IMG/VR virus record: IMGVR_UViG_2896607866_000006
Reading direction: 5' to 3' (one strand)
DNA length: 28,573 bases
Source: a virus
Taxonomy: Duplodnaviria > Heunggongvirae > Uroviricota > Caudoviricetes
In this document: positions 18,255 through 24,267 of the stretch, one piece after another
How the letters are laid out: each line of letters begins with the position of its first letter
How positions within the stretch are numbered: position 1 is the first letter of the stretch
The notes under the pieces: model-generated
Databases searched by the model: none
The model's input: only the letters and a program-made list of their open reading frames with translations
Told to the model about the DNA's origin: nothing
Translations under genes and position numbers: made by a program

Positions 18255-18333
18255 TTTCTTACGTATAAACTGCTTCAATTTTGCTATGCTTCGCAAAGCT
18301 GTATCGCGAGGCGGATTGCAGACATGGACATCG

Positions 18334-18361
18334 TAAAAAAACCGCTTAATGCGGTTTTTTT
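18334..18361 (+). terminator. Rho-independent terminator (tR'-like) downstream of the Q-like gene
   Basis: AAAAAAA-accgc-ttaat-gcggt-TTTTTTT; symmetric A/T runs, so potentially bidirectional. Confidence 0.65.
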
Positions 18362-18681
18362 ACGTCAGGAAAGCAGGGGAGAATGCTGCTAGTTGGGCAA
18401 CTGGTCTTTCTGCTCCAAATTATAACAGAGACCAGTTATAGTTTCGGTGCTGTGTTTTTTTTACAATATTGTGATAACACATTGCTGGCGGGAGTTTTGA
18501 TATTTCTTGGCAGGGGCTGATGATGCGTTATCCTGATGTCGTCAACTCATATAAAATGAGATGAGAGATCATTGCAGGGTGGTTTGTAATTCGCTGTTTA
18601 GCGGGACAATATGTTGTCTGATACAAGACACCCGACGCCTCAGATTACTATAATAAAGACGAAGCATCCTTTGTATTGACC

Positions 18682-18707
18682 AACCGCCTGTTTAGGCGGT
18701 TCTTTTT
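18682..18707 (+). terminator. Second Rho-independent terminator
   Basis: aaccgcct-gttt-aggcggtt stem-loop followed by cTTTTT. Confidence 0.5.
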
Positions 18708-18965
18708 GGGCTGGTTTATTGTATGCCAAATGATTATTAAAAAGGTTGTGTTAATAACAAAATCCGAAATAATATGCCTGCATATTTTTATCTTGCTTAT
18801 ATTCTGCATATTGTGCATAGCAGGCTCATCCCTGCAATCAAAACTGTATGATGAGTATTTTTTGTTTTCCTTTTTTCCAGTCATCTGATGATGACCTGCT
18901 TCTTTTTAATCCGGATCGACATCAGTTTTTTAAGTAAGCGCCCCGAGAAGTACGTAGCGTAAGGA

Positions 18966-20567
18966 TTATTTTACAGACGAGAAGTTCCAGGGCAGCAGTT
19001 CATGCACTTGGTTCGACGGCCAGTCATTGAGCTTCTCGATCACTTCGCGCAACCAGTCCTCCGGCTCCACTTCGTTCTGTTTGCAGGTGACCAGCAGACT
19101 GTAGATGATCGCCGCACTTTCTCCTCCCTTGTCTGAGCCGAAAAAGAGATAATTTTTTCTTCCAACCGCCACCGATCGTAACGCGTTTTCACCGATGTTG
19201 TTGTCTATTTCCACCCAGCCGTCACGACAGAACTCGTTCAGCGCATTCCAGTGATTCAGGATATAGTCGAACGCCTTCGCCATCTCCGCATGTTTCGACT
19301 GCGTTTTCCTCTGCAACTGTATCCAGTCGTACAACGACTGCATCAACTGGACGCTTCTGGCTTTTCTGACTGCAAGCCGTTCCTCTGCCGGACTGCCACG
19401 TATCTCCGCTTCTATGTCGTATAACTCTGCTATCCGTCTGAGCGCTTCCTGAGTCATTTCTGTCGGACGGCGCACATCCTCGTCATGGATTTTTCGGCGG
19501 GCGTGGGCCAGGCACCCGGCTTCCTTCACCCGGCCCGTTTCGTACAGTACGTTATAACCTGCATAGGCATCAGCCTGCAGTACGCCCTGATACTTTGCCA
19601 GGTGGAGCTGCGGATGTTCTCCTTTGCGATCTGCCGAATACGCGAACCAGACGGCTGCCGGCAGGGATGAACCCGCATTACGATCATCCCTGACGTATAC
19701 CCACAGACGACCCGTTTTCGTCTTTCCGTTCCCCGGGGCCAGTACTTTCACCGGAGTGTCATCTGCGTGCACCTTTCCTGCCTCCAGAACATAGTCATTC
19801 AGCGCTATATACAGAGGACGGAGTTTGTCTGCCATTTCTGATACCCAGCGCACCATGGTATTACGGCTCAGCTCCACGCCCTGTCGCGCGTATATTTCTG
19901 ACTGGCGATATAAAGGGATATGTTCCATATATTTGCTGACCAGGATCCGTGCAAGTAACCCTGCACTGGCATAACCGCGTTCGATCGGTTTAGGGGGAAG
20001 TGGTGCCTGAACGATGACATCACACCGGCTACAGGCCAGTTTGGGACGTATGGTTTCGATAACTTTAAAGGCGGTATTAATGATATCCAGTTGCTCTGAG
20101 ATTGTTTCCCCCATTTCTTTCAGAACACCTCCACAGGCCGGGCAACTGGTTTCAGCAGGCAGAAGGCGATGTGTCTCCCGGGGAAGTTCTGCCGGCAGCG
20201 GTTTTCGTGAAGATTTTCGTCCCGGGAATTCAGGCTTACTGGCGATCGGGTTTTCTGACGGGGGACTGGTGTCAGGTGAATCTGTGACTGACGATGCATC
20301 TTCCAGAAGATTTCTGGCTGTGTTCAGCCGGTTTTCCAGTTCCGACAGTCGTTTTTCTGCCTGTCGGATCTGATTTTCAAGCTTATGACGCTTTTTCTCT
20401 GAACTCTGGCTGAACAACATACGACGCAACCTGTCGAGTTGCGCTTTCAGCCGTTCAATTTCCTGCTCATAGCCCGCGACCTGACAGGCATACTGTCGAA
20501 GCCGACTCTGTTGCTTACGCAACATGGCTTTAAGCAGCTCAATATCATCGGGGAGTTCATTGTTCAT
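18966..20567 (-). CDS. IS66-family transposase TnpC, 533 aa
   Basis: 533-aa ORF with coiled-coil N-terminus, CxxC ... CxxC zinc-binding region and transposase core; duplicated almost identically at 22489-24090. Confidence 0.8.
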
Positions 20568-20586
20568 TCCCTTGTTTTATCACGGG

Positions 20587-21605: not shown

Positions 21606-21687
21606 CGTTCGTGTCCATCAATATAGATGGGCGCGATTGTTGCCAGACAGGACAATTTTCACAAGACGTCGCTGATGGGGCGCTTAC

Positions 21688-22125
21688 GAATTAACAGAGC
21701 CTCAAATCAGAGAAGGCTCATGGCGAAAAGAACGGCGAACCAGCTATAGCCGTGAATTTAAGGTCCGTCTGGCTAAGCAGGCATTACAGCCTGGGGCTGT
21801 TGTTGCCCGGATCGCCAGAGAACACGATATCAATAATAACCTGCTGTTTAAATGGAAAAGCCAGTACGAGGACGGCTTACTGAGCGATGATGACATACAG
21901 GAATGCATGCCTGTCCCGGTGGCTCTGACTGATACGCCGGAGCCGACCAGACCAGTTACAAATCCCTTCTGGCGTAACAAGCATGATGAGCGCCCTGAGG
22001 GGGCTCCCGGAAACGTCCCACGGTGCGAGCTGCATCTTAAATCAGGTGTGGTAAAACTGTTTGACCCTCTCACTCCGGAACTGTTACGGGCGCTAATCCG
22101 CGAAATGAAAGGGGGTATCCGATGA
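21688..22125 (+). pseudogene. Truncated IS66 orf1 (C-terminal part only)
   Basis: Identical to the 3' portion of orf1 in the complete copy; no start codon or left IR. Confidence 0.5.
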
Positions 22126-22469
22126 TAACGCTGCCGACCGGTACCAAAATCTGGATCATCGCTGGCATCACAGATATGCGTTGTGGCTTCAATGGCCTGG
22201 CTTCGAAGGTGCAGAACACGCTGAAAGATGACCCGTTCTCCGGGCATATCTTCGTCTTCCGGGGCCGCAGTGGCAAAATGGTGAAAATACTGTGGGCCGA
22301 TCGTGACGGGTTATGCCTGTTCGCCAAACGCCTGGAACGGGGCCGCTTCGTCTGGCCGGTGACCCGGGAAGGGAAAGTGCACCTGACGCCAGCTCAGTTA
22401 TCCATGCTACTGGAGGGGATCGCGTGGCAACATCCCAAACGGACAGAACGGCCTGGCATCCGGATATAA
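22122..22469 (+). CDS. IS66-family TnpB (orf2), second copy
   Basis: Identical 115-aa ORF to 20587-20934. Confidence 0.75.
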   Translation: MITLPTGTKIWIIAGITDMRCGFNGLASKVQNTLKDDPFSGHIFVFRGRSGKMVKILWADRDGLCLFAKRLERGRFVWPVTREGKVHLTPAQLSMLLEGIAWQHPKRTERPGIRI

Positions 22470-22488
22470 CCCGTGATAAAACAAGGGA

Positions 22489-24090
22489 ATGAACAATGAA
22501 CTCCCCGATGATATTGAGCTGCTTAAAGCCATGTTGCGTAAGCAACAGAGTCGGCTTCGACAGTATGCCTGTCAGGTCGCGGGCTATGAGCAGGAAATTG
22601 AACGGCTGAAAGCGCAACTCGACAGGTTGCGTCGTATGTTGTTCGGCCAGAGTTCAGAGAAAAAGCGTCATAAGCTTGAAAATCAGATCCGACAGGCAGA
22701 AAAACGACTGTCGGAACTGGAAAACCGGCTGAACACAGCCAGAAATCTTCTGGAAGATGCATCGTCAGTCACAGATTCACCTGACACCAGTCCCCCGTCA
22801 GAAAACCCGATCGCCAGTAAGCCTGAATCCCCGGGACGAAAATCTTCACGAAAACCGCTGCCGGCAGAACTTCCCCGGGAGACACATCGCCTTCTGCCTG
22901 CTGAAACCAGTTGCCCGGCCTGTGGAGGTGTTCTGAAAGAAATGGGGGAAACAATCTCAGAGCAACTGGATATCATTAATACCGCCTTTAAAGTTATCGA
23001 AACCATACGTCCCAAACTGGCCTGTAGCCGGTGTGATGTCATCGTTCAGGCACCACTTCCCCCTAAACCGATCGAACGCGGTTATGCCAGTGCAGGGTTA
23101 CTTGCACGGATCCTGGTCAGCAAATATATGGAACATATCCCTTTATATCGCCAGTCAGAAATATACGCGCGACAGGGCGTGGAGCTGAGCCGTAATACCA
23201 TGGTGCGCTGGGTATCAGAAATGGCAGACAAACTCCGTCCTCTGTATATAGCGCTGAATGACTATGTTCTGGAGGCAGGAAAGGTGCACGCAGATGACAC
23301 TCCGGTGAAAGTACTGGCCCCGGGGAACGGAAAGACGAAAACGGGTCGTCTGTGGGTATACGTCAGGGATGATCGTAATGCGGGTTCATCCCTGCCGGCA
23401 GCCGTCTGGTTCGCGTATTCGGCAGATCGCAAAGGAGAACATCCGCAGCTCCACCTGGCAAAGTATCAGGGCGTACTGCAGGCTGATGCCTATGCAGGTT
23501 ATAACGTACTGTACGAAACGGGCCGGGTGAAGGAAGCCGGGTGCCTGGCCCACGCCCGCCGAAAAATCCATGACGAGGATGTGCGCCGTCCGACAGAAAT
23601 GACTCAGGAAGCGCTCAGACGGATAGCAGAGTTATACGACATAGAAGCGGAGATACGTGGCAGTCCGGCAGAGGAACGGCTTGCAGTCAGAAAAGCCAGA
23701 AGCGTCCAGTTGATGCAGTCGTTGTACGACTGGATACAGTTGCAGAGGAAAACGCAGTCGAAACATGCGGAGATGGCGAAGGCGTTCGACTATATCCTGA
23801 ATCACTGGAATGCGCTGAACGAGTTCTGTCGTGACGGCTGGGTGGAAATAGACAACAACATCGGTGAAAACGCGTTACGATCGGTGGCGGTTGGAAGAAA
23901 AAATTATCTCTTTTTCGGCTCAGACAAGGGAGGAGAAAGTGCGGCGATCATCTACAGTCTGCTGGTCACCTGCAAACAGAACGAAGTGGAGCCGGAGGAC
24001 TGGTTGCGCGAAGTGATCGAGAAGCTCAATGACTGGCCGTCGAACCAAGTGCATGAACTGCTGCCCTGGAACTTCTCGTCTGTAAAATAA
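22489..24090 (+). CDS. IS66-family transposase TnpC, second copy, 533 aa
   Basis: Same 533-aa protein as the first copy with two substitutions (S to G, F to S). Confidence 0.8.
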
Positions 24091-24122
24091 TCCTTACGCT
24101 ACGTACTTCTCGGGGCGCTTAC

Positions 24123-24267
24123 GAATTAACAGAGCCTCAAATCAGAGAAGGCTCATGGCGAAAAGAACGGCGAACCAGCTATAGCCGTGAATTTAAGGTC
24201 CGTCTGGCTAAGCAGGCGTTACAGCCTGGGGCTGTTGTTGCCCGGATCGCCAGAGAACACGATATCA
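24123..24267 (+). mobile_element. Third IS66 fragment: 145 bp of orf1-internal sequence
   Basis: Repeats the 21688-21832 block with one mismatch, then breaks off into unrelated sequence at 24268. Confidence 0.5.

What the first reader, a model, noticed from the sequence alone, without database searches (positions are those of the whole stretch)
18255..24267. Lysis and morphogenesis modules replaced by an IS66-family cluster with an unusual repeated junction
After the Q-like gene and its terminator there are no holin, endolysin, terminase, head or tail genes; instead there is one complete IS66-family copy (18934-21687, minus), a 5'-truncated copy in opposite orientation (21688-24122) and a third 145-bp orf1 fragment (24123-24267), which then abuts a truncated gene 3' end and a tfa-like gene. 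The junction IR(...GGGGCGCTTAC) followed by GAATTAACAGAGCC (orf1-internal) occurs twice, at 21676-21695 and 24111-24130. The two long copies form an inverted repeat of about 2.4 kb around a roughly 340-bp centre. This suggests IS insertion into a resident IS followed by IS-mediated deletion or recombination that removed the late region, but a collapsed-repeat misassembly is also possible.
Basis: seen in the sequence. Interest (0 to 1): 0.55.

Follow-up and report, generated by a model that had tools for sequence, protein, structure and literature searches.

The report
Nested insertion sequences in decayed prophage
A Rac-type prophage of Shigella flexneri has no lysis or virus-particle genes, and in their place copies of one insertion sequence (ISSfl3) sit inside one another; this is ordinary IS-driven genome decay, except that the same 8-bp spot inside the IS was hit more than once.

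Summary
Window 18934-21687 is a full 2754-bp ISSfl3 (IS66 family, minus strand). 21688-24122 is IS positions 320-2754 (plus strand). 24123-24267 is IS positions 320-464. Both junctions read ...GGGGCGCTTAC|GAATTAAC.

It is not a misassembly. The window is identical to S. flexneri CP024470.1. An independent NCTC assembly has the same architecture with 9 SNPs, and the two long copies differ at 3 sites.

Sister strains explain the structure:
- One strain keeps the missing 5' 327 bp of the resident copy. It shows a perfect 8-bp target duplication (GAATTAAC) on both sides of the inverted copy, so this is a simple nested transposition.
- The window then lost about 1.8 kb flush with the inverted copy's IRR end.
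- The second junction is the right-hand side of an older forward nested insertion at the same 8 bp. Its left-hand side survives in another Shigella lineage.
- A further strain has an independent nested copy 46 bp away.

The holin gene starts 80 bp beyond the resident IS's left end in E. coli Rac prophages. Everything from there to the last 168 bp of a tail-fibre gene is absent.

The kind of event is well known. The repeated use of one target inside tnpA is a minor unexplained curiosity.

The parts
17712..18254 (+). Q-like late-gene antiterminator, the last intact phage gene before the IS nest
   Evidence: Pfam DUF1133 (2.5e-107) and Phage_antitermQ. Collinear with Rac-like prophages.
18255..18933 (+). 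Retained non-coding stretch downstream of Q. It ends at a deletion junction flush with the IS end (...CAGTTTTTTAA|GTAAGCG).
   Evidence: 99-99.9% identical to E. coli Rac-like prophages up to window 18937, where homology stops. In L010 the same sequence continues for another 3175 bp. A hairpin plus T-run at about 18337-18366 is seen in the sequence. A second terminator-like site lies at 18682-18701.
18934..21687 (-). Copy A: complete ISSfl3 (IS66 family), 2754 bp. IRR end at 18934, IRL end at 21687. tnpC 18966-20567, tnpB 20587-20934, tnpA 20931-21605, all intact.
   Evidence: 99.6% identical to elements that PGAP annotates as ISSfl3. IRs are GTAAGCGCCCCATCAGCGACG and GTAAGCGCCCCGAGAAGTACG.
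21369..21687 (-). 319-bp centre between the inverted arms. This is IS positions 1-319 of copy A (IRL, tnpA start and the N-terminal HTH_23 domain).
21688..24122 (+). Copy B: IS positions 320-2754, the 3' part of the resident copy that A split. Truncated tnpA 21688-22125 (a 72-aa ORF from 21907 is called in public annotations), tnpB 22122-22469, tnpC 22489-24090, IRR end at 24122.
   Evidence: The resident copy's other part (IS 1-327) is preserved in L010:5390-5716.
21688..21695 (+). GAATTAAC: right-hand copy of the 8-bp target duplication made when A inserted (IS positions 320-327).
   Evidence: Both copies flank the inverted element in L010.
24123..24267 (+). Fragment C: IS positions 320-464. 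It is the remnant of an older copy into which the resident copy had inserted in forward orientation at the same GAATTAAC. It ends at a non-IS-end breakpoint.
   Evidence: The matching left junction (IS ...327|IRL of a full forward copy) is seen in IMG/VR contig L022. An uninterrupted IS 1-464|tail-fibre form is seen in L024 and L072.
24268..24435 (+). Last 168 bp of a phage tail-fibre gene.
   Evidence: Homology to the intact gene (L002:1-645) begins exactly at 24268. There is no microhomology at the breakpoint.
24386..25009 (+). tfa-like tail-fibre assembly gene (DUF4376, 207 aa).
   Evidence: Pfam. About 80% DNA identity to the end gene of phage Rac-SA53.
25189..26904 (-). ipaH: type III-secreted NEL E3 ubiquitin ligase (571 aa), cargo at the prophage end.
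   Evidence: Pfam NEL, LRR_TTSS, LRR_4. This exact allele occurs in only three genomes.

Best explanation
The region is the scar of successive ISSfl3 (IS66-family) events in a Rac-type prophage of Shigella flexneri. It has no function of its own.

IS coordinates: 1 = IRL end, 2754 = IRR end, X = GAATTAAC at 320-327.

1. An ISSfl3 copy sat next to the 3' end of a tail-fibre gene. Only its positions up to 464 survive (fragment C), joined to the last 168 bp of that gene. How this junction formed is not known.
2. A second copy, the resident R0, inserted forward into the first at X. This gave the junction IRR|GAATTAAC at 24122/24123. This step is inferred, with its two halves seen in different lineages.
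3. In the clade of the window, the IRL end of R0 lies 80 bp upstream of the Rac holin gene essD. Everything from essD to the tail-fibre remnant is absent. The absence is shown; the route (IS-end adjacent deletion, recombination between two ISSfl3 copies, or inversion joining two prophage remnants) is not resolved.
4. A third copy, A, transposed in inverted orientation into R0 at the same X, with an 8-bp duplication. This is shown in L010. It gave the junction IRL|GAATTAAC at 21687/21688 and split R0 into positions 1-327 and copy B (320-2754).
5. In the window's lineage an adjacent deletion starting at A's IRR end removed R0 positions 1-327 plus about 1.5 kb of phage DNA carrying two TolA-like genes. 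This is shown by comparison.

Consequences:
- The prophage keeps int, recET, immunity, replication and Q genes and its cargo, but it cannot lyse the cell or build particles.
- Copy A has both IRs and three intact ORFs, so it may still be active.
- B lacks IRL and the TnpA N-terminus.
- The repeats keep the locus unstable. The 145-bp direct repeats delete B, as seen in L010.
- The 2.4-kb inverted arms exchange SNPs between strains.
For: - Architecture and identities.
- IS66-family identity.
- Nested insertion with duplication: L010 reads ...GAAGGAATTAAC|GTAAGCGCCCCGAG...(inverted copy)...GGGGCGCTTAC|GAATTAACAGAGCC.
- An 8-bp duplication is the norm for this IS: GTTATTAA, ACTAATGG, GAAACAGC, CCTCATTC, CATACATC at five other copies, and ATTTCTCC shared across two recombined copies, L013/L014.
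- Independent nested copy in L004 with duplication GGCGAACC (IS 366-373).
- Forward nested left junction at X in L022.
- Adjacent deletion: the window's flank ends at L010:2541 and at L023:20680. The resident copy's IRL sits at L023:22191, and essD starts at 22271.
- Close relatives are 99.95% identical up to window 18937. They continue with the TolA-like genes, holin, lysozyme, Rz, trkG, parB and, in most of them, terminase. Annotated relatives show the same order after Q.
- Not an artefact: the window is identical to CP024470.1; UGYT01 has the same architecture with 9 SNPs; A and B differ at 3 sites.
- Derived alleles each need one simple step. L010 lacks exactly the 2435 bp between the direct repeats. 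The serotype-5 type has a 37-bp deletion between CGAA repeats. L024 and L072 have IS 1-464 uninterrupted.
Against: - The predicted common intermediate (IS 1-327 | A | 320-2754 | 320-464) was not found in any genome I could reach.
- Several steps can be read in either direction. IS 1-464 could be ancestral or derived. The 37-bp difference could be an independent insertion at 357.
- The IRL end of the resident copy has three different left flanks in different strains. More rearrangements occurred than the model lists.
- The IS-464|tail-fibre junction has neither an IS end nor microhomology.
- The forward nested copy in L022 is a variant ISSfl3 with an indel at 1468-1504. It may therefore be an independent event and not the other half of step 2.
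Confidence: 0.8

Rival explanations
1. Assembly artefact: a collapsed or mis-joined repeat produced an inverted pair and a duplicated junction that do not exist in the cell.
For: IS copies of 2.7 kb are a classic cause of misjoins. No E. coli complete genome, plasmid or GTDB representative carries either junction.
Against: - The same architecture appears in two separate assembly records from different strains: CP024470.1 (0 mismatches) and UGYT01 (9 SNPs).
- A and B differ at 3 sites.
- Sister alleles (L010, L004, L024) are each one ordinary event away, and they carry the expected target duplications.
Confidence: 0.03
2. Only one transposition hit GAATTAAC. The second identical junction was copied from the first. 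One route is inversion between the 327-bp inverted repeats followed by deletion or duplication between the 11-bp identical IR termini (GGGGCGCTTAC). Another is a template switch between these termini.
For: The IRL end of the inverted copy and the IRR end of the resident copy lie in direct orientation and share 11 identical terminal bases. On paper, inversion plus an 11-bp-mediated 327-bp deletion converts the L010 form into IRR|GAATTAAC. This is my inference.
Against: - L004 carries IRR|GAATTAAC although its resident copy is uninterrupted at 320-327 and its nested copy sits at 366-373. So that junction predates, or is independent of, the inverted insertion at X.
- L022 shows a genuine forward nested left junction at X. 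Rearranging an inverted insertion cannot produce it.
- Fragment C differs from B at the one informative site.
Confidence: 0.12
3. The late genes were lost by one simple internal deletion within a single prophage, from inside the IS (position 464) to the tail-fibre gene. No second prophage remnant was involved.
For: The tfa-like gene resembles the terminal gene of Rac-SA53. The resident copy's IRL lies just upstream of essD in the Rac backbone. This is the simplest reading of the window alone.
Against: - The block IS 1-464 | tail-fibre end | tfa | ipaH | pphA occurs with non-Rac left flanks in other S. flexneri: IS1, an integrase fragment and the sit operon in L002 and L024; the hokB region in L004.
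- The right chromosomal flank is pphA/yebW/yebV/rsmF. Rac's cognate right flank is uspF/ompN, and the integrase region is 98.75% identical to E. coli Rac.
Confidence: 0.3
4. The reuse of GAATTAAC and the nearby junctions are coincidence plus ascertainment, with no target preference.
For: - The locus was picked because of the coincidence.
- The protein cluster that revealed the other junctions only holds N-terminal fragments of 45-104 aa.
- Ordinary ISSfl3 duplications show no consensus.
- No such junction occurs in 5426 E. coli genomes.
- The adjacent hairpin is weak (-7.1 kcal/mol, z -2.25).
Against: At least two independent events used exactly the same 8 bp, one forward and one inverted. That is 1 in 464 to 1 in 2754 per extra event if targets were uniform. 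Further IS66-family ends are joined at 341, 344 and 366-373, and one of these is at another chromosomal locus.
Confidence: 0.5

Closest known systems
ISSfl3 (annotated ISSfl4 in older S. flexneri records), IS66 family
   Same: Three-gene layout tnpA-tnpB-tnpC. DDE_Tnp_IS66 transposase with zf-IS66 and LZ domains. Terminal repeats starting GTAAGCG. 8-bp target duplication. 99.6% DNA identity to elements that PGAP names ISSfl3.
   Different: Nothing about the element itself differs. What is unusual is that copies sit inside one another at one position of tnpA.
Rac cryptic prophage of E. coli (intR, recET, kilR, sieB, ydaSTUVW, Q-like, essD, rrrD, trkG, stfR, tfaR)
   Same: The left 18.9 kb of the window is collinear with Rac-type prophages at 97-99.9% identity: int, recT, recE, immunity, replication, DUF1367, YbcO, Q. 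Like K-12 Rac, it is defective.
   Different: - The window lacks essD, lysozyme, Rz, trkG and all morphogenesis genes.
- It carries a three-gene candidate defence cargo.
- It ends with ipaH next to pphA, not with pinR next to uspF.
Shigella chromosomal ipaH islands (prophage remnants carrying ipaH)
   Same: An ipaH NEL ligase gene directly downstream of a tail-fibre assembly gene, embedded in IS-rich phage debris. That such islands are a recognised feature of Shigella is from my own knowledge.
   Different: In this clade the island is fused through the ISSfl3 nest to a Rac-type early region.
IS-mediated adjacent deletions and IS-IS recombination in Shigella genome decay
   Same: A deletion end flush with an IS terminus (18933/18934). 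Loss of a segment between direct IS-derived repeats (the L010 allele). IS are known to cause deletions and rearrangements in Shigella (PMC7373316). ISSfl4 pairs drive the commonest pINV deletion (PMC5629016).
   Different: None in kind.

Membership tests
IS66 family insertion sequence (ISSfl3) | DDE transposase of the IS66 type (TnpC) with zinc-finger and leucine-zipper N-terminal regions | tested here: met
   PF03050 at 5.4e-101, plus PF13005, PF13007 and PF13817, on the 533-aa ORF.
IS66 family insertion sequence (ISSfl3) | Accessory genes tnpA (HTH) and tnpB (IS66 Orf2) upstream of tnpC, with the tnpA stop overlapping the tnpB start | tested here: met
   PF01527 and PF13384 on the 224-aa ORF. 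PF05717 on the 115-aa ORF. ORFs 20931-21605 and 20587-20934 overlap by 4 bp.
IS66 family insertion sequence (ISSfl3) | Terminal inverted repeats beginning GTAAGCG | tested here: met
   GTAAGCGCCCCATCAGCGACG and GTAAGCGCCCCGAGAAGTACG, with 11 identical terminal bases.
IS66 family insertion sequence (ISSfl3) | 8-bp target-site duplication on insertion | tested here: met
   Not visible in the window itself. Seen for the same copy in L010 (GAATTAAC), for L004 (GGCGAACC) and at five other loci.
IS66 family insertion sequence (ISSfl3) | Near-identity to the named reference element | tested here: inconclusive
   99.6% identical to elements that PGAP labels 'IS66-like element ISSfl3 family transposase'. 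The ISfinder reference itself was not available. Older records call the same ORFs ISSfl4.
Nested (IS-in-IS) simple transposition | Both halves of the interrupted element flank the inserted one, and the target is duplicated in direct orientation | tested here: met
   L010: IS 1-327 | inverted full copy | IS 320-464. In the window only the right half remains.
IS-mediated adjacent deletion | The deletion begins exactly at an IS terminus, the IS is retained, and there is no target duplication | tested here: met
   Window 18933/18934 compared with L010:2541 and 5717, and with L023:20680 and 22191. The mechanism (transposase or recombination) was not tested.
Rac-type lambdoid prophage | Rac integrase, recET, immunity, replication and Q modules in Rac order | tested here: met
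   97.4% identity over 73% of window 1-18900 to phage vB_EcoS-666R9. 98.75-99% identity to E. coli PKF8 Rac.
Rac-type lambdoid prophage | Lysis and morphogenesis modules present, so the phage is functional | tested here: not met
   I found no holin, lysozyme, Rz, terminase, portal, capsid or tail genes. This rests on the ORF list, Pfam on selected ORFs and collinearity with annotated relatives. Only 168 bp of a tail-fibre gene and a tfa gene remain.
Rac-type lambdoid prophage | Cognate chromosomal flanks (ttcA ... uspF/ompN) | tested here: not met
   The right flank is pphA/yebW/yebV/rsmF. In E. coli it is uspF/ompN. The left flank lies outside the window.

The most novel reading that the evidence does not exclude
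ISSfl3, and perhaps related IS66-family elements, may preferentially insert into a segment of about 55 bp of its own tnpA (IS positions 320-373). This segment is the linker between the HTH_23 and HTH_Tnp_1 domains and lies around a small palindrome, GAGCCT-N11-AGGCTC. Copies would then tend to pile into one another there. Possible causes are a DNA structure, a TnpA-bound site that attracts the transpososome, or selection for the leftover N-terminal HTH fragment. The evidence is at least two independent hits on the identical 8 bp, plus junctions at 341, 344 and 366-373, at least one of them at another locus.
Probability: 0.3. Interest if true: 0.4.

Novelty: already known. Interest (0 to 1): 0.2.

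Why it matters
For annotation, the window is a dead, locked-in prophage remnant that still carries an ipaH effector and a candidate defence cassette. It should not be scored as an inducible phage.

For Shigella genomics, it is a well-resolved example of how one IS family dismantles and fuses prophages step by step. 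Intermediate alleles are preserved in sister strains. The locus remains recombinogenic because of its 2.4-kb inverted repeats and 145-bp direct repeats.

Only the repeated use of one target inside the transposon's own tnpA could be new. If it is real, it would be the first target preference I know of for an IS66-family element. It would also be a self-limiting feature of IS expansion, because each hit inactivates a copy.

Tried and rejected
- **Junction searches outside Shigella.** I searched for both junctions in 5426 E. coli complete genomes, in PLSDB plasmids and in GTDB species representatives. I also scanned IMG/VR for their shared core (GCGCTTAC|GAATTAACAGAGCC). No record carries either. 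Shigella chromosomes are not in those sets, so I moved to exact-protein look-ups.
- **Self-attack model.** I worked through, on paper, an intramolecular self-attack by a single IS as a one-step origin of both junctions. I rejected it. It predicts IRR|X' and IRL|X junctions or circles, not two junctions both followed by X-b. L010 and L004 show ordinary duplications.
- **Cryptic internal IS end.** I looked for one at position 320. There is no GTAAGCG-like sequence there.
- **Target consensus.** About ten ordinary ISSfl3 insertion sites show none.
- **Microhomology at the IS-464|tail-fibre breakpoint.** There is none.
- **DNA-level confirmation of the 341 junction** (the 95-aa TnpA fragment). The junction is absent from plasmids. 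It therefore rests on the protein tail SKRPEKYVA, which is the exact translation of the IRR end.
- **Reciprocal junction.** I looked for an IS end next to essD upstream sequence among 138 fetched loci and found none. Only a few ISSfl3 copies of the relevant genomes were in hand.
- **Literature.** Searches for ISSfl3, ISSfl4, IS679 and IS66 target specificity found no statement on target preference.

Full report
**The observation**

The repeat finder reports inverted arms 18934-21368 and 21688-24122. They are 2435 nt long with 319 nt between them. It also reports a 156-nt direct repeat at 21677-21832 and 24112-24267.

A base-by-base comparison gives three pieces. The first is a full 2754-bp element at 18934-21687 on the minus strand. 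The second covers IS positions 320-2754 at 21688-24122. The third covers IS positions 320-464 at 24123-24267. The two long copies differ at three bases (21783, 22645, 22829). The short piece matches the full copy.

The 27-mer GGGGCGCTTACGAATTAACAGAGCCTC occurs twice, against 0 expected. Only the centre size was off: it is 319 bp, not about 340.

**What the element is**

The 533-, 115- and 224-aa ORFs are an IS66-type DDE transposase, IS66 Orf2 (TnpB) and an HTH protein with HTH_23 and HTH_Tnp_1 domains. The ends are GTAAGCGCCCCATCAGCGACG and GTAAGCGCCCCGAGAAGTACG.

The element is 99.6% identical to copies that PGAP names ISSfl3. Older S. flexneri records call the same ORFs ISSfl4.

**The surroundings**

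Window 1-18313 is 97.4% identical to Rac-type phages. It carries int, recT, recE, immunity and replication genes, DUF1367, YbcO and Q.

In E. coli Rac prophages, and in relatives up to 99.95% identical to the window, the Q gene is followed by this gene order:
- two TolA-like genes
- the holin essD
- lysozyme
- Rz
- trkG
- parB
- terminase and the remaining late genes (absent from some of these relatives, which are themselves defective)

In the window, homology stops at 18937, at the IS end.

To the right, homology to an intact tail-fibre gene starts exactly at 24268. A DUF4376 tfa gene and an ipaH NEL ligase follow. After them come chromosomal pphA, yebW, yebV and rsmF. This is not Rac's usual right flank, which is uspF/ompN.

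**Not an assembly artefact**

The window is identical over 14,188 bp to S. flexneri CP024470.1. Another assembly record from a different strain, UGYT01000001, has the same architecture with 9 SNPs. The TnpC variant of copy A is unique to CP024470.1 in the whole protein collection.

**An allelic series explains the structure**

Exact look-up of the tfa protein returned the same locus from other S. flexneri chromosomes. BLAST of the IS against them gave the forms below. IS coordinates are used throughout.

| Strains | Structure |
|---|---|
| UGYQ01 (L010) | IS 1-327, inverted full copy, IS 320-464, tail-fibre remnant |
| Window, L008, L009 | Inverted full copy A, IS 320-2754 (B), IS 320-464 (C), tail-fibre remnant |
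| L004 | IS 1-373, inverted full copy, IS 366-2754, IS 320-464, tail-fibre remnant |
| L002, L003, L005-L007 (serotype-5 type) | One full forward copy, IS 357-464, tail-fibre remnant |
| L024, L072 | Uninterrupted IS 1-464, tail-fibre remnant |

- **L010.** The sequence reads ...GAAGGAATTAAC|GTAAGCGCCCCGAG on the left and GGGGCGCTTAC|GAATTAACAGAGCC on the right. This is a textbook nested transposition with an 8-bp duplication.
- **Window type.** The resident copy's first 327 bp and the phage DNA to its left are missing. The break lies exactly at A's IRR end. Measured on E. coli Rac, the lost phage DNA is about 1.5 kb (L023:20681-22191) and carries the TolA-like genes. L010 has an extra IS2-type insertion there, so the gap is 3175 bp in L010 coordinates.
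- **L004.** This is an independent nested insertion with duplication GGCGAACC. It carries the same IRR|GAATTAAC junction to the 145-bp piece.
- **Serotype-5 type.** The 37-bp difference is flanked by CGAA on both sides and spans a small palindrome. I read it as a slippage deletion.
- **L024, L072.** The fusion protein of this form occurs on 203 contigs, including strain 301.

The ipaH allele of the window is shared only by CP024470.1, UGYT01 and UGYQ01. The window type and L010 are therefore sister alleles. L010 is what recombination between the two 145-bp direct repeats would leave.

**The second junction**

IRR|GAATTAAC at 24122/24123 is the right-hand junction of a forward nested insertion at the same 8 bp.

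The left-hand junction of such an event survives in an IMG/VR contig from another Shigella lineage, L022. There, IS ...327 is followed directly by the IRL of a full forward copy. The tail, tfa and ipaH region of that contig is 97% identical to the window. Its full copy abuts the tail-fibre gene 775 bp upstream of the window's breakpoint.

The copy in L022 is a lineage-specific ISSfl3 variant, so this may be a separate event.

I considered whether the second junction could have been copied from the first through the 11-bp identical IR termini. L004 has the second junction without any insertion at 320. L022 has a genuine forward junction. Both argue against copying.

**How the late genes went missing**

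The IRL of the resident copy lies 80 bp upstream of essD. The only remnant of the morphogenesis region is 168 bp of a tail-fibre gene, joined to IS position 464 with no IS end and no microhomology.

The block made of the IS remnant, tail-fibre end, tfa, ipaH and pphA occurs in other strains with non-Rac left flanks. These are IS1, an integrase fragment and sitABCD in L002 and L024, and the hokB region in L004. The integrase region is Rac's (98.75% identity), yet the right chromosomal flank is not Rac's.

I therefore think the Rac early region was joined to a separate ipaH-prophage remnant by an ISSfl3-end event or by recombination between copies. From the window I cannot tell whether the missing DNA was deleted or moved by inversion. 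No reciprocal junction was found in the few loci I could reach.

**The curiosity**

The same 8-bp target was used at least twice independently, once forward and once inverted. A third nested copy sits 46 bp away.

The protein collection also holds truncated TnpA products:
- An 82-aa form with the junction at 327. It is seen on 74 contigs and is labelled multispecies.
- A 95-aa form whose tail SKRPEKYVA is the exact translation of the IRR end joined after position 341. It is seen on 400 contigs. Its accessions in strains 301 and 8401 lie far from this locus.
- A 98-aa form on S. boydii plasmids, joined after position 344 to a different GTAAGCGC... end.

Several observations count against a strong preference:
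- About ten ordinary ISSfl3 duplications show no consensus.
- The adjacent hairpin is weak.
- E. coli genomes and plasmids show no such junction.
- That protein cluster only holds fragments of 45-104 aa.
- The locus was chosen because of the coincidence.

I found nothing in the literature library on IS66-family target choice. I rate a real self-target hot spot at about 0.3.

**Verdict**

The finding is real, correctly described and correctly interpreted in outline. It is a known kind of event: IS elements cause deletions and rearrangements in Shigella (PMC7373316), and ISSfl4 pairs drive the commonest deletion of the virulence plasmid (PMC5629016). Interest is low, apart from the possible target preference.

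Noticed in passing
window 12056-15058 (+): Three adjacent genes (363, 415 and 227 aa) between the replication and Q modules match the PADLOC candidate defence system Hp1/Hp2/Hp3 (E-values 5e-41, 1e-10, 4e-11). In a near-identical relative (L120), a 363-aa protein at the corresponding position is annotated PDDEXK_GAPS4; I did not check that the two proteins are identical. This is prophage cargo, and other Rac-type prophages carry different genes at this position.
   Followed up: partly
window 25189-26904 (-): ipaH (NEL E3 ligase, 571 aa). This exact allele is found in only three genomes. Other strains carry 551-, 587- or 608-aa alleles at the equivalent place.
   Followed up: partly
window 27677-28573: The right end of the window is chromosomal: a pphA-like Metallophos gene, then yebW-like DUF1482. 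Beyond the window come yebV, rsmF, yebT, yebS, proQ and prc. This is not the cognate right flank of Rac (uspF/ompN). The 'prophage' is therefore bounded by non-matching flanks, which implies a larger chromosomal rearrangement.
   Followed up: partly
L002:9774 (also L003, L005, L006, L007): Serotype-5-type strains have a 37-bp shorter junction (IRR|GAAAAGAAC). It is flanked by 4-bp CGAA microhomology and spans the palindrome GAGCCT-N11-AGGCTC. It looks like a slippage deletion.
   Followed up: yes
protein cluster (P0004, P0012): There are truncated TnpA products of 95 aa and 98 aa. The 95-aa form joins an IRR end after IS position 341 and is on 400 contigs, including strains 301 and 8401, apparently at another locus. 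The 98-aa form is on an S. boydii plasmid and is joined after position 344 to a different GTAAGCGC... end. The DNA could not be fetched.
   Followed up: partly
L134 (Logan contig, SRR26586370): A short-read contig of exactly 2435 bp equals IS positions 320-2754. This is what an assembly graph yields when reads branch at position 320. It is independent read-level support for a junction at that position.
   Followed up: no
L013-L017, L019, L022: A variant ISSfl3 with an indel around positions 1468-1504 splits tnpC into two ORFs. It is the amplified form in other Shigella genomes and has ordinary 8-bp duplications.
   Followed up: no
L114 (E. coli JML285, NZ_AP024114.1 870511-885658): A cluster of four or more IS66-family elements lies next to and inside one another. 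One end is joined at about position 100 of an ISSfl3-like copy, and an ISEc11 (IS110 family) sits inside tnpB. IS66-family elements nest in E. coli too, but at another position.
   Followed up: partly
L125 and L131 (UGYQ01000002.1, pINV-type plasmid): A full ISSfl3 is inserted inside the orfA (HTH_Tnp_1 gene) of an IS2-type element.
   Followed up: no
window A and B arms compared with L008 and L010 (IS positions 415, 1277, 1461, 1693, 2388): SNPs are shuffled between the two inverted arms in different strains. This suggests gene conversion or repeated inversion across the 2.4-kb inverted repeat.
   Followed up: partly
window 7483-10868: This stretch (immunity and start of replication) is absent from the otherwise 99.95% identical relative L120. 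The early region is also polymorphic.
   Followed up: no
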